From Cyanobacteria bacterium P01_F01_bin.150 (GTDB taxonomy: Bacteria; Cyanobacteriota; Cyanobacteriia; CAKZMO01), in the NCBI GenBank assembly GCA_039189765.1, contig JBCCYL010000001.1:96001-160000 (forward strand): 64,000 bases of DNA, read 5' to 3'. Every line of letters starts with the position of its first letter. Positions within the stretch are counted from its first letter, which is position 1. This document shows positions 3,488 through 19,596 of this stretch, piece after piece. The notes beneath the pieces were generated by a model that had not been told where the DNA came from, ran no database searches, and saw only the letters and a program-made list of their open reading frames with translations. The translations under genes and the position numbers were made by a program.

Positions 3488-6400
3488 TTACGTTTTCCCC
3501 AGAAGGGCTTCTAGGGTTGCGAGTTCTTGGGCGATCTCGTCTTCCATTTCTGGATCGTCGGGTGAAAGCTGTGAGGGATTTTCTGTACTTTCGGGTATGT
3601 GTTCTGGTGGTGATGTTACTCTATCTTCAGTCTCACTATCGCTAATAATTTGTGGAGGAAAATTAGAAGTTGCTGAGGAAGCTGAAACAATTTGTTCGCC
3701 TTTTGATGTTAACGCAGGTATTTCGGATGGGATCGATTCAGACCAGATGTTTTTGACTAAATAATGGGCTAAATCGTGAATGGTGGGATATTCAAAAATA
3801 AGAGTGGTGGGAGTGGCAATGCCAGTAGTAGCTTCCAAACGATGACGCAGTTCAACCGCCATTAGGGAATCCATTCCCATATCGAAGAAACCCTGCCGGG
3901 CATTGGGTCGCTGGCCTGTTTCTCTGCCTAAGACATAGGCTACTTCTGATTGGAGGTGGGCAATCATTTGGGTCGGGCGATCGCCCATGGGAATTCGCTC
4001 TAATTCCTGCAATAGCTCCGATTTAGAGACTTTTATATCTGAAGAGTCTTGCTGTTTATCATCATGTTTAAGGGACTCGGAGAACTCCGAGAAAAAGGGC
4101 GATTTAAATCCTGCATTTAAGAATTGTGGCCAATTAATAGGGATAACGCCAATTTGGGGGCTGCTCACCCCCCTTAGTCCCCCCTTGTAAAGGGGGGAGA
4201 CCGGAGGTTCGGCCCTCTCCCCTTTATAAGGGGAGGGGAGGGGAGGGGTATTCAAAAGCTGCTCAAATATCTGAATGCCTTGCTGAGGGGCAATGGGGCC
4301 AATGCCGCGCGATCGCATTTGCTCCTGGACCTGTTGATTGGCGGCTGAACCGATGTCGGACCATGCTCCCCAATTAATGCTGAGTCCGGGTAGTCCCGCT
4401 GCTTGGCGATGGTGGGCTAAGGCGTCTAGGAAGGCGTTGGCTGCAACGTGATTGCCTTGGCCGGGGGAGCCAAGAAGGGAGGCTGCTGAGGAAAACAGGA
4501 CAAAGAAATCAAGGGGGACATCCTGACAATATTCTTGAGTCAGGGTATGAAGATGCCAAGCGCCCTGGACTTTTGGAGCCATAACAGTAGAGAGGCGATC
4601 GCGATTCAAAGACATCATCACTCCATCATCCAAGACCCCAGCGCTATGGATAACGCCTCGTAATGGTGGCCAGGATTGTTGAAGCTGTTCAAAGACGGTG
4701 CTAAGTTGGTGGCGATCGCTCACGTCTGCCACCATCACCTCAACTTGCACCCCTTGCTTTTGCAGTGCCTGTAACTGCCGTTTGATATCACTTGAGTCAA
4801 CATCTCGCCGACTGACTAGCACAATATGGTCAGCCCCATGCTCTGCTAACCACTGAGCAGTCAGTAACCCTAAGCCTCCAAGTCCCCCTGCAATCAAGTA
4901 GGTTGCATCACCACGGACCGTGCTCCCGTAGGTTGGGTTAGCGATAGCGTAACCCAACGATGCCGTTTTATCTGAGACTTGTTGATCTGATGATTCTGTA
5001 TGGATATTTGAATCTAACGTTGGGTTTTCTCCGTTGGAGACGCTGTACGAACGGTCCTCAACCCAACCTACGGAATCTAAGGTAGTGCTGTTGGGTTTCG
5101 TTTCCTCAACCCAACCTACGGGGTCCAGGGTAATGACCAGCTTGCCGATATGTTTGCCGCCCTGCATGGTGCGAAAAGCTTTGGGGGTAGCGATCGCCTC
5201 AAAAACACTCAGCGGCAGCGGCGCAAGGGAGCTATCTTCAAACCAGGCAAGAACGCCCTTAAATAACTCACTGACTTGCTGTGGCTTGGTTTGAGCCAGA
5301 GACAATAAATCAACTAGAGCAAAGGTTCCGTTGGGCTTAACCTGATGGAACTGTGCTTCAGTCCACACGTCTCGCTTACCCATTTCAAGAAAGTATCCGG
5401 TTTCCGTCAGTACCGAAACGCCCCTATCAATAAATTCGCCCGATAGAGCGTTAAGCACAATATCAATGCCCTCTCCATCGGTCAGATCCATTACCCGATC
5501 GGCAAAGTCCAAGGTACGGGACGGCAGAATATGGGCTACCCCCATCTCCTCTAGTACGGACCACTTGCTAGGGCTAGCGGTGGCAAATACTTCTACGCCT
5601 AGATGCTGAGCGATCGCCACTGCTGCCATTCCTGTGCCGCTGGCTCCTCCATGAATCAAAACCCGTGGAGGACGAGACGTTCGCTTATTGGAGCCTGTGT
5701 TTGCAGCTATCGAAATACCTTTGGACGCTAACTTAGGTAAAGGTGCAGCGACGCATAATGCATAAAATGCCGTCAAGAAATTAGCGGGGATACTTGCCGC
5801 AGTGGTTATATCCATCCCACAGGGGACTGGTGCAACTAAGTGGGCATCTGTTGTGACGTAGCGGCTAAAGCTGTTGGGAGCTAGGGCCATAACGCGATCG
5901 CCCACGGCTACATTACTAACCTGATCTCCAACAGCCACCACTTCCCCCGCGCACTCAACTCCAAACCATCCCCGCTCAAAGGGCAATAATCCCAAAGCAT
6001 CCAACACATCGATAAAGTTTAACCCTACTGCCTGAACCTGGATCTCTACCTGATTGGCTTGAGGGGATAGCCGTTCAGATGCGACAAACGTTAGGTTCTC
6101 CAGAGTTCCTTTGCCCGTCGTCGCAAGCTGGAACGGCCCGTCAGGAAGTTCTGGGGCGATACAATCAGCATCCACAGAACCATGGGAATCTAAGTTATGG
6201 GGAGCTAAAGAATGAGGAATTAGACGGGGCACGTACCGCTGTCCGTGACGCAATACAATCTGATCGTCAAATTCTCGCCGTAGCAATTGGACTTGTGAGA
6301 GACTGTCTTGCAACGCTTCCGTTTGTCGCTGCCATTCAGCCCATAGGGCTTGACCTTGGATTTTAACGTTGTCAGAAGCATCCAAATCAATCCGCACACA

Positions 6401-19596: not shown

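What the first reader, a model, noticed from the sequence alone, without database searches (positions are those of the whole stretch)
3488..19596. Two consecutive cis-type, fully reducing PKS modules that have both lost their AT domain
Seen: in both proteins the KS-AT linker (HLLVLSAK...GRSH(F/Y)..RLAI) is followed within about 100 aa by the post-AT linker (AY..G..I....LPTYPFQRQ). No GQGSQ, GHSxG or HAFH is present (junctions ~17640-17770 and ~9650-9850). Both keep DH-cMT-ER-KR-ACP with an in-module ER. Established: canonical trans-AT systems usually use a free-standing AT and often a trans-acting ER. No stand-alone AT lies in this window; the only AT is in the next gene (1-3352). Inference: an independent cis-to-trans transition in which the downstream module's AT, FabD or an AT outside the window loads these ACPs, giving a fatty-acyl chain extended by two alpha-methylated units.
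Basis: partly seen in the sequence, partly recalled or inferred. Interest (0 to 1): 0.8.

Follow-up and report, generated by a model that had tools for sequence, protein, structure and literature searches.

The report
Two PKS modules that lost AT
Two neighbouring polyketide synthase genes of a cyanobacterial siderophore-like gene cluster have each cleanly lost their built-in loading (acyltransferase) domain, while a matching cluster in another cyanobacterium still has it, so this is a natural before-and-after example of a known but uncommon type of enzyme remodelling.

Summary
Both proteins (window 11701-19596 and 3488-11704, minus strand) are KS-DH-cMT-ER-KR-ACP. They keep the KS-AT linker and the post-AT linker, but about 300 residues of AT core are missing. 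Pfam, a custom AT profile, motif searches and a six-frame scan find one AT in the window, in gene 2-3352.

Both KS domains sit inside cyanobacterial cis-AT clades, with CurL as the best solved relative, and not among classical trans-AT KSs. The key comparison is plasmid pGLO7428.01 of Gloeocapsa sp. PCC 7428. It carries a syntenic cluster (TonB receptor, MFS, FAAL-ACAD-ACP, PKS1, PKS2, PKS3) in which all three PKSs have an AT. The window therefore holds an AT-deleted derivative of an all-cis-AT cluster.

This is not unique. [quoted passage not shown] Their deletion end points differ, and the KS trees require several separate AT changes.

The source of malonyl for the two ACPs is untested. The window's genome was not in the searchable collection. 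Mixed cis/AT-less assembly lines are already documented, so this is a new member of a known kind. It offers a useful pair for evolutionary and engineering comparison.

The parts
19593..23915 (-). Loading protein FAAL - acyl-CoA dehydrogenase-like domain - ACP (1440 aa). FAAL is about 22146-23801, ACAD about 20748-21866, ACP about 19779-19982.
   Evidence: Pfam. Coordinates. It is 47.5% identical over 1463 aligned positions to the Gloeocapsa plasmid homologue, which has the same three domains.
11701..19596 (-). PKS1 (P0001, 2631 aa), an AT-less module: KS 18274-19404, KS-AT linker 17803-18267, DH 16477-17451, cMT 15370-15849, ER 13177-14304, KR 12526-13074, ACP 12004-12198.
   Evidence: Pfam. 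Motifs. Coordinates.
17533..17802 (-). PKS1 AT-deletion junction. It runs from the end of the KS-AT linker through the vestige FFCGQ (17761-17775) and the post-AT linker (17608-17670) up to [12 protein letters not shown] (17497-17532).
   Evidence: Alignments. AT profile.
3488..11704 (-). PKS2 (P0002, 2738 aa), an AT-less module: KS 10400-11527, KS-AT linker 9869-10393 (interrupted by a repeat-derived insert), DH 8597-9442, cMT 7202-7726, ER 5132-6058, KR 4355-4906, ACP 3758-3955.
   Evidence: Pfam. Motifs. Coordinates.
9593..9868 (-). PKS2 AT-deletion junction. It holds the vestige IFCGQ (9740-9754) and the post-AT linker (9620-9682) and runs up to [12 protein letters not shown] (9557-9592).
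   Evidence: Alignments. AT profile.
2..3352 (-). PKS3 (P0003, first 1117 aa; the gene runs off the window). KS 2096-3265, AT 704-1648 (the only AT in the window), then the start of a KR structural subdomain.
   Evidence: Pfam. Six-frame scan. It is 53% identical over 1102 aa to Gloeocapsa PKS3, which is KS-AT-KR-ACP, 1481 aa.
24341..28081 (+). Divergently transcribed TonB-dependent receptor (24341-26749) and MFS transporter (26762-28081). The same pair lies next to the Gloeocapsa cluster.
   Evidence: Pfam. Identities to the Gloeocapsa proteins are 51% and 67%. Gloeocapsa annotation.

Best explanation
The window holds part of a FAAL-primed, siderophore-like PKS/NRPS cluster of a cyanobacterium. 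The first two extension modules descend from ordinary cis-AT modules of the form KS-AT-DH-cMT-ER-KR-ACP. Each has lost its roughly 300-residue AT core by an in-frame deletion that spared the KS-AT linker and the post-AT linker.

Shown here: the AT is absent, the KSs are of cis-AT type, an orthologous cluster with all ATs exists, and the catalytic motifs are intact.

Inferred:
- The modules still work.
- The loader's FAAL activates a fatty acid, possibly desaturated by its ACAD domain.
- PKS1 and PKS2 each add one malonate unit, which is C-methylated by the cMT and fully reduced. This gives a dimethyl-branched acyl chain that passes to PKS3 (KS-AT-KR-ACP) and on to NRPS genes beyond the window.
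- Because the modules have no AT, their ACPs must receive malonyl in trans.

The donor is not identified. I lean to a free malonyl-CoA:ACP transacylase (housekeeping FabD or a discrete AT outside the window), at about 0.5. The PKS3 AT is the main alternative, at about 0.3. The confidence given below is for the origin-plus-trans-loading account, not for the donor.
For: AT absence.

Cis-AT descent.
- FastTree of 535 KSs: the P0001 KS is in a starred 30-row clade (27 AT+, 3 AT-), and the P0002 KS is in a starred 25-row clade (20 AT+, 5 AT-).
- IQ-TREE quick tree of 103 KSs: a 99% branch separates 83 cis-type rows, which include both window KSs, from 20 rows holding the 16 low-similarity AT-less KSs sampled.
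- PDB: CurL 641 and 622 bits, against PksJ 432 and 412.

Orthologous all-AT cluster: Gloeocapsa sp. PCC 7428 pGLO7428.01 has the same gene order and domains, plus an AT in each PKS. Reciprocal best matches are FAAL-ACAD-ACP 47.5%, PKS1 61.6%, PKS2 56.4%, PKS3 53.4%, TonB receptor 51%, MFS 67%. The junction alignments show the AT core missing between the FLFxGQGSQ strand and the post-AT linker.

Likely function.
- KS Cys-His-His, the DH His motif, the cMT SAM motif, the ER and KR nucleotide motifs and the ACP DSL are present in both proteins.
- The 7.9 and 8.2 kb reading frames are open and overlap their neighbours by 4 nt.
- The orthologue P0123 in another assembly keeps the same AT-less junction and 87% KS identity.

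Gene order equals module order.
- P0177 has FAAL-ACAD-ACP fused to a P0001-type AT-less module.
- P0237 has a P0002-type module fused to a P0003-type KS.

Precedent for a distant free AT: haliamide (PMC6274090).
Against: - No loader was identified.
- There are no expression or product data.
- Some features could mean reduced function. P0001's ER carries an insert of about 88 residues just before its NADPH motif. P0002's ER motif reads HGGASGTG rather than the HAAxGGxG of its relatives. P0002's KS-AT linker is split by a repeat-derived insert.
- The trees were built from homologues that my own searches returned, labelled by a simple AT-hit rule. They contain no curated trans-AT reference set. 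They are FastTree or 'quick' trees, because the careful search did not finish.
- The structure model of the KS-linker region was too poor to use.
Confidence: 0.7

Rival explanations
1. The single remaining AT, in PKS3 (gene 2-3352), malonylates all three ACPs, so one AT is shared across three polypeptides.
For: - It is the only AT in the window. It looks intact, with GQGSQ, GHSIGE and HGFH, and PF00698 at E=1.6e-53.
- All 5 KSs of the P0003 type that I saw are followed by an AT. AT loss was seen only in the two fully reducing module types.
- In the representative search, six two-module proteins (P0270, P0274, P0276, P0292, P0312, P0338) have an AT in module one and none in module two. One AT per two modules is therefore a recurring layout.
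Against: - Nothing was tested.
- PKS1's ACP docks to PKS2, not PKS3, so it would have to reach the PKS3 AT by free encounter (inference).
- The 5 of 5 count is too small to mean much.
- The two-module proteins have no genomic context, so they may equally rely on free ATs.
Confidence: 0.3
2. These are canonical trans-AT PKS modules acquired as such, served by a dedicated discrete AT gene lying just outside the window.
For: - The modules lack an AT and keep a KS-flanking linker, as trans-AT modules do.
- The left flank of the cluster is unseen.
Against: - The KSs are nested among cis-AT cyanobacterial KSs.
- CurL is by far the best solved match.
- The syntenic Gloeocapsa cluster has cis ATs and no discrete AT among its annotated genes from the TonB receptor to the 2OG oxygenase.
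- ER and cMT are in-module.
Confidence: 0.05
3. The cluster is decaying. The two AT-less modules are dead or skipped, and the pathway makes nothing or a shorter product.
For: - The essential AT has been lost twice.
- There are many repeat-derived inserts inside linkers and inside the ER of PKS1.
- The ER nucleotide motif in PKS2 is deviant.
Against: - Both frames of about 8 kb are uninterrupted and translationally coupled.
- All active-site motifs checked are present.
- The orthologue in another assembly keeps the AT-less module with 87% KS identity.
- Eight further AT-less modules of the same full architecture exist in other assemblies. That is not expected for dead genes.
Confidence: 0.1
4. 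The missing ATs are an assembly or gene-calling artefact.
For: The genes are repeat-rich, and repeats can mislead assemblers.
Against: - Two different genes show clean, in-frame junctions with different flanking sequence.
- The same state is found in independent assemblies: P0123, P0177, P0183, P0214 (three contigs, three sources), P0191, P0228, P0410 and P0449.
- No AT-coding DNA is present in any frame.
Confidence: 0.02

Closest known systems
PKS/NRPS cluster on plasmid pGLO7428.01 of Gloeocapsa sp. PCC 7428 (NC_019746.1, about 159-204 kb). It is annotated only; I found no paper on it.
   Same: - Same gene order and orientation: TonB-dependent receptor and MFS transporter divergent from FAAL-ACAD-ACP, two KS-...-DH-cMT-ER-KR-ACP genes and a KS-AT-KR-ACP gene.
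- PPC-domain proteins lie nearby.
- Protein identities are 47-67%.
   Different: - Both fully reducing modules of Gloeocapsa have an AT (PF00698, E about 1e-55). The window's do not.
- The window proteins are nevertheless longer (2631 vs 2454 aa and 2738 vs 2448 aa), because of repeat-derived inserts.
- The window's continuation (LLM oxidoreductase, NRPSs and tyrosinase in Gloeocapsa) is unseen.
Haliamide synthase of Haliangium ochraceum (PMC6274090, passages read)
   Same: - It is an otherwise cis-AT PKS-NRPS line in which some modules (2 and 5) lack an AT.
- Malonate is the unit added there.
- The authors propose a stand-alone malonate-specific AT elsewhere in the genome.
   Different: - It is a myxobacterial system with different module content and other missing domains as well.
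- No AT-containing orthologous cluster was described for comparison.
- The product is known, unlike here.
Canonical trans-AT PKSs (for example bacillaene PksJ/PksL, and the PDB chains named 'AT-less polyketide synthase')
   Same: Modules without an integrated AT. The KS is followed by a linker subdomain and an LPTYPF-type segment.
   Different: - The KS sequences are distant: 338-432 bits against 622-641 for CurL. They fall on the other side of a 99% branch.
- ER and cMT are integrated in the module.
- No discrete AT is visible in the window.
Assembly lines with both cis-AT and AT-less modules, as catalogued (PMC10394414, passages read)
   Same: One line mixes modules with and without an AT. 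The catalogue counts 122 PKSs and 351 PKS-NRPS hybrids of this type among 8799.
   Different: The catalogue does not, in the passages I read, say whether the AT-less modules are of cis-AT descent or what loads them.
Algal multimodular type I PKSs with AT displaced in trans (PMC4661987, passages read)
   Same: It proposes an independent evolutionary move of the AT out of type I PKS modules.
   Different: These are eukaryotic systems in which whole synthases are AT-less. No orthologous pair with and without AT was shown in the passages I read.
Cyanochelin A/B clusters (PMC12628792, passages read)
   Same: Cyanobacterial, FAAL-primed PKS/NRPS siderophore clusters with a TonB-dependent receptor context and a cMT-containing PKS.
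   Different: - The PKS architecture differs (KS-AT-Ox-cMT-KR).
- They have no ACAD loader and no fully reducing modules.
- No AT loss is described.

Membership tests
cis-AT modular type I PKS (cyanobacterial, CurL-like) | The KS groups with KSs of AT-containing modules. | tested here: met
   Starred clades of 14-30 rows around each window KS are 73-90% AT+. CurL is the best single-KS PDB match.
cis-AT modular type I PKS (cyanobacterial, CurL-like) | An AT domain is integrated in every extension module. | tested here: not met
   No AT in PKS1 or PKS2 by Pfam, custom profile or motifs. PKS3 has one.
cis-AT modular type I PKS (cyanobacterial, CurL-like) | A KS-AT linker subdomain and a post-AT linker ending in LPTYPF. 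| tested here: met
   CurL-like_PKS_C, RhiE-like_linker and KAsynt_C_assoc hits. Landmarks.
canonical trans-AT PKS | Modules lack an integrated AT. | tested here: met
canonical trans-AT PKS | The KSs belong to trans-AT KS clades. | tested here: not met
   A 99% branch separates them from the 16 low-similarity AT-less KSs sampled. PDB trans-AT KSs score 338-432 bits against 622-641 for CurL. No curated reference set was available.
canonical trans-AT PKS | A discrete AT (often AT plus acyl hydrolase) is encoded in the cluster. | tested here: inconclusive
   None in the 64 kb window. The cluster's left side is outside the window and could not be fetched.
mixed cis-AT / AT-less assembly line | One assembly line contains both AT-containing and AT-less extension modules. 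| tested here: met
   PKS1 and PKS2 are AT-less and PKS3 has an AT. The genes are contiguous, co-oriented and overlapping. That they act as one line is inferred from synteny and from the fused forms P0177 and P0237.
mixed cis-AT / AT-less assembly line | The AT-less ACPs are actually malonylated in trans and the modules extend the chain. | not testable with these tools
   This needs biochemistry or product analysis.

The most novel reading that the evidence does not exclude
This cluster family may show the cis-to-trans AT transition in progress. On this reading, ATs have been excised repeatedly and independently, at different end points, from the two fully reducing cMT modules of FAAL-ACAD-primed cyanobacterial clusters. 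No dedicated discrete AT was recruited. The one AT kept, in module 3, or the cell's FabD, now serves three modules on three polypeptides. The natural deletion end points would then mark where an AT can be removed from a cis-AT module without killing it.
Probability: 0.22. Interest if true: 0.65.

Novelty: new member of a known kind. Interest (0 to 1): 0.4.

Why it matters
How trans-AT architectures arise from cis-AT ones is usually argued from deep phylogenies. Here an AT-less cluster and an orthologous all-AT cluster (Gloeocapsa pGLO7428.01) can be compared gene by gene, and several other AT-less relatives have different deletion end points.

If the AT-less modules are active, two things follow:
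- They give natural boundaries for removing or swapping ATs in engineered modules.
- They give a simple system (three ACPs, one AT, one FabD) for asking whether a neighbouring cis AT or the housekeeping transacylase takes over loading.

If they are inactive, the finding is only a decaying cluster. Either way, missing ATs in otherwise cis-AT lines have been described before, so the case does not overturn anything.

Tried and rejected
- Extending the window. A genome-contig scan with the C-terminal 450 aa of PKS3 returned 76 loci. The best was 59% identical, so the window's genome is not in that collection and its left flank stayed unseen. All 94 KSs in those loci are followed by an AT, so they gave no AT-less context either.
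The organisms and contexts of P0177, P0183, P0191, P0214, P0228, P0410 and P0449 therefore remain unknown.
- Plasmid search with the AT-less junction. Cyanobacterial hits came in two pieces spanning about 1.5-1.7 kb, meaning the AT is present. Single-piece hits were at most 31% identical (Ralstonia, Burkholderia, Bacillus and others). No AT-less close relative with context was found.
- Known cyanobacterial metallophore clusters. Cyanochelin B and C and fatuamide were checked in passages. Their architectures differ, so this is not the same cluster.
- Gene conversion between the two modules. There are no long shared DNA tracts, only short dispersed repeats.
- KR His-for-Tyr as a sign of dead KRs. 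The same GQxxH is in all 15 proteins with a KR motif that I checked, AT-containing ones and PuwB included, so it says nothing about this case. The motif position is recalled, not tested.
- The DH G-to-D change in PKS1. That position varies across relatives, so I dropped it.
- Structure of the PKS1 KS-linker-junction region (671 aa, 11-row alignment). Mean pLDDT was 47.8, so the model was unusable and no fold search was run.
- The careful IQ-TREE run did not finish in 288 s, so the quick PMSF tree was used. AU tests of single-loss hypotheses were not run.
- Lohman et al. 2015 on AT-less KSs (PMC4611616) is not held. What I say of AT remnants in trans-AT KSs is recalled.
- Literature searches found no paper on this cluster, on the Gloeocapsa plasmid cluster or on FAAL-ACAD-primed AT-less modules. 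This holds only for the library searched.
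Full report
**What is there.** Four co-oriented minus-strand genes fill window 2-23915.
- 19593-23915 encodes a 1440-aa FAAL / acyl-CoA-dehydrogenase-like / ACP protein.
- 11701-19596 encodes PKS1 (P0001, 2631 aa).
- 3488-11704 encodes PKS2 (P0002, 2738 aa).
- 2-3352 encodes the first 1117 aa of PKS3 (P0003), which runs off the window.

The first three genes overlap by 4 nt each. Pfam gives KS, KS-AT linker families, DH, cMT, ER, KR and ACP for PKS1 and PKS2. For PKS3 it gives KS, linker, AT (PF00698, E=1.6e-53) and the start of a KR structural subdomain. 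On the plus strand follow a TonB-dependent receptor, an MFS transporter, two RTX-repeat proteins, two SbmA-like ABC proteins and three very large proteins, one of which has PPC domains. None of them has an AT.

**Checking the observation.** The AT is absent from PKS1 and PKS2 by every test I could apply.
- Pfam on the whole proteins finds none.
- Pfam at E<=10 on the KS-to-DH pieces alone finds none.
- Motif searches for GQGSQ, GHSxG, HAFH and YASH are negative.
- A profile built from 150 AT domains of relatives scores 404 bits on the PKS3 control. In the junction pieces it touches only the post-AT flank, profile positions 325-375.
- A six-frame scan of all 410 open segments of at least 50 aa finds one AT in 64 kb, the one in PKS3.

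From the RLAI of the KS-AT linker to LPTYPF is 109 aa in PKS1 and 105 aa in PKS2.

Alignment with PKS3 and with AT-containing orthologues shows the gap. It runs from the first AT strand (FLFxGQGSQ) to the start of the post-AT linker. A short vestige of that strand survives: FFCGQ in PKS1, IFCGQ in PKS2 and IFHGQ in the PKS1 orthologue P0123.

**Are the KSs cis-type or trans-type?** I mapped KS and AT domains in all proteins returned by the searches. Each KS was labelled AT+ if an AT hit begins within 350 aa after it and before the next KS. It was labelled AT- if there was no such hit and at least 450 aa followed. It was labelled 'end' otherwise.
- FastTree of 535 KSs (356 AT+, 143 AT-, 36 end): the PKS1 KS pairs with P0123 (87% identity) inside a starred 30-row clade of 27 AT+ and 3 AT-. 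The PKS2 KS lies in a starred 25-row clade of 20 AT+ and 5 AT-.
- IQ-TREE quick tree of 103 KSs. I chose these rows as follows: the window's three KSs, seven AT-less relatives, the 22 AT- KSs most similar to PKS1, 41 near AT+ KSs, 14 random other AT+ and 16 random low-similarity AT-. A 99% branch separates 83 cis-type rows, including both AT-less window KSs, from 20 rows holding all 16 low-similarity AT- KSs.
- PMSF quick tree of 43 rows. It gives the same two clades: 98% for 15 rows with PKS1 and 99% for 16 rows with PKS2. The careful search did not finish.
- Solved structures. CurL KS-AT is the best single-KS match, at 641 bits for PKS1 and 622 for PKS2. DEBS and Pik score about 460-484, PksJ 432 and 412, and chains named 'AT-less polyketide synthase' 338-387. 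The top entry, 7zma, scores higher only because two KSs in one chain are summed (two stretches).

The two KSs belong to different subclades and are not recent duplicates of each other. They share no long DNA tracts.

**The decisive comparison.** A tblastn of the loader protein against plasmids found a 47% identical, full-length homologue on pGLO7428.01 of Gloeocapsa sp. PCC 7428. The annotated region shows, in order:
- PPC-domain proteins
- a serine hydrolase
- an MFS transporter and a TonB-dependent siderophore receptor, divergent from the genes that follow
- the FAAL-ACAD-ACP gene
- two PKS genes of 2454 and 2448 aa (identical to my P0190 and P0182)
- a 1481-aa PKS
- an LLM-class flavin oxidoreductase
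- two NRPSs
- a tyrosinase-family protein
- a second TonB-dependent receptor
- a sucrase ferredoxin
- a 2OG oxygenase

Pfam gives KS-AT-DH-cMT-ER-KR-ACP for both large PKSs and KS-AT-KR-ACP for the third. BLASTP pairs each window protein with its positional counterpart:

| Window protein | Identity to Gloeocapsa counterpart |
|---|---|
| Loader (FAAL-ACAD-ACP) | 47.5% |
| PKS1 | 61.6% |
| PKS2 | 56.4% |
| PKS3 | 53.4% |
| TonB receptor | 51% |
| MFS transporter | 67% |
| PPC proteins | 37-39% |

The window therefore holds the same cluster type with the ATs of modules 1 and 2 removed. The comparison also predicts that the unseen remainder holds KR-ACP of PKS3, a flavin oxidoreductase and NRPS genes. 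That prediction is an inference.

**How common is this?**
- Among the 120 best hits to PKS1 residues 440-1400, 7 lack any AT, the query included (Pfam column, confirmed by my own scan). They are P0001, P0123 (a MAG named Cyanothece sp. SIO2G6, 58% identity), P0177 (3312 aa, loader fused to an AT-less module), P0183, P0191, P0214 and P0228.
- Among 87 new proteins from the PKS2 search, 3 lack an AT. P0410 and P0449 are full modules. P0384 is an N-terminally truncated fragment from the same MAG as P0123, so it says nothing about its AT.
- All other near relatives are AT-containing cyanobacterial modules, PuwB included.
- In 76 genome loci related to PKS3, 0 of 94 KSs were AT-less.
- The AT-less relatives have different junction lengths, 123-221 aa from KS end to LPTYPF, and different remnants.
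- On the 43-row tree the AT label needs 6 changes, of which starred branches force at least 4. This argues for several separate losses. It assumes that the KS tree tracks the module history and that ATs are not regained. I did not run AU tests.
- The search of representatives with the PKS1 junction also returned six two-module proteins with an AT only in the first module. No context is available for them.

**How it most likely works.** The catalytic motifs of KS, DH, cMT, ER, KR and ACP are present in both proteins and the long frames are intact. I therefore take the modules to be active.

The loader's FAAL would activate a fatty acid onto its ACP. The ACAD-like domain may desaturate it. This resembles, from memory, the mycobactin MbtM/MbtN/MbtL trio, and I did not test it. 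PKS1 and PKS2 would each add malonate, methylate the alpha carbon and reduce fully. PKS3 would add a beta-hydroxy unit.

The ACPs of PKS1 and PKS2 must be malonylated in trans. Nothing in my calls identifies the donor.

I lean to a free transacylase (FabD or a discrete AT elsewhere). It can reach both ACPs by diffusion. Such a solution was proposed for haliamide (PMC6274090). From memory, FabD can complement AT-null DEBS modules. The PKS3 AT is the main alternative. It is retained in all five KSs of that type that I saw, and PKS2's ACP must dock next to it anyway.

**Against an active pathway.** PKS1's ER has an 88-residue repeat-derived insert before its NADPH motif, and P0123 has one at the same site. 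PKS2's ER motif is atypical. PKS2's linker subdomain is split by an insert.

**Comparison with what is known.** The modules work like trans-AT modules but fail the phylogenetic criterion for that family. They are cis-AT by descent but fail the integrated-AT criterion.

The right drawer is the mixed cis/AT-less assembly line. A catalogue counts 473 of these among 8799 (PMC10394414, passages), and haliamide synthase is a described case. An independent move of ATs out of modules has also been argued for algal PKSs (PMC4661987, passages).

I found no paper on this cluster type or on the Gloeocapsa plasmid cluster (searches, in the held library only).

**Verdict.** The loader question is open, and the phenomenon is known. 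The added value is the orthologous all-AT comparator and the sign of repeated loss within one cassette family.

Noticed in passing
window 3488-19596; examples 18054-18093, 16095-16134, 10183-10222, 9987-10069, 4167-4249, 8468-8524, 13078-13134, 4925-4981, 9436-9473, 11783-11820: Many short dispersed repeats, some palindromic, are inserted in frame in the PKS genes. They translate to recurring peptides in inter-domain linkers. Because of them PKS1 and PKS2 are longer than their AT-containing Gloeocapsa orthologues even though they lack the AT (2631 vs 2454 aa and 2738 vs 2448 aa). I did not examine whether such repeats helped to delete the ATs.
   Followed up: partly
window about 13700-13960 (PKS1 ER, residues about 1880-1965): An insert of about 88 low-complexity residues sits just before the NADPH-binding motif of the PKS1 ER. 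The orthologue P0123 has a shorter insert at the same site. The four other ERs aligned (P0190, P0145, P0002, P0182) lack it, although P0002 has a shorter, different insert at the same site.
   Followed up: partly
window 2096-3265 (KS of PKS3): The only AT-bearing module has a KS that is not CurL-like. Its best single-KS PDB matches are 4wky (584 bits) and 4oqj (554), against 396 for CurL. In the trees it falls, with four AT+ relatives, on the side holding the classical AT-less KSs. So the AT-less modules have cis-type KSs and the AT-containing one does not.
   Followed up: partly
window 19593-23915: FAAL, an acyl-CoA-dehydrogenase-like domain and an ACP are fused in one loader protein. The layout is conserved in Gloeocapsa and fused further to an AT-less module in P0177. 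Gloeothece verrucosa PCC 7822 has a 38% homologue next to a P450 and a condensation-domain protein instead of PKSs.
   Followed up: partly
window 12526-13074 and 4355-4906 (KR domains): The KR motif reads GQANH / GQGNH, with His where I recall the catalytic Tyr of KRs. The same is true of all 15 proteins in which the KR motif was found, AT-containing ones and PuwB included. It is therefore a clade trait and not special to this window. The motif assignment is from memory.
   Followed up: partly
window 28297-30759, 37625-48334, 49221-55688, 57491-63376: Two RTX-repeat proteins and three giant proteins (3569, 2155 and 1961 aa) flank the cluster. Only the first giant protein has clear PPC domains. 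They match the two PPC-domain proteins that also flank the Gloeocapsa cluster, at 28-39% identity. Their role is unknown.
   Followed up: no
window 971-985 (PKS3 AT): The AT specificity motif reads HGFH rather than the HAFH seen in the Gloeocapsa PKS1 and PKS2 ATs. A repeat-derived insert also lies inside the AT between GQGSQ and GHSIGE.
   Followed up: no
proteins P0270, P0274, P0276, P0292, P0312, P0338 (representative library, no context): These two-module proteins have an AT only in the first module. The second module's KS is cis-like and AT-less. This suggests that one AT per two modules is a recurring layout.
   Followed up: partly
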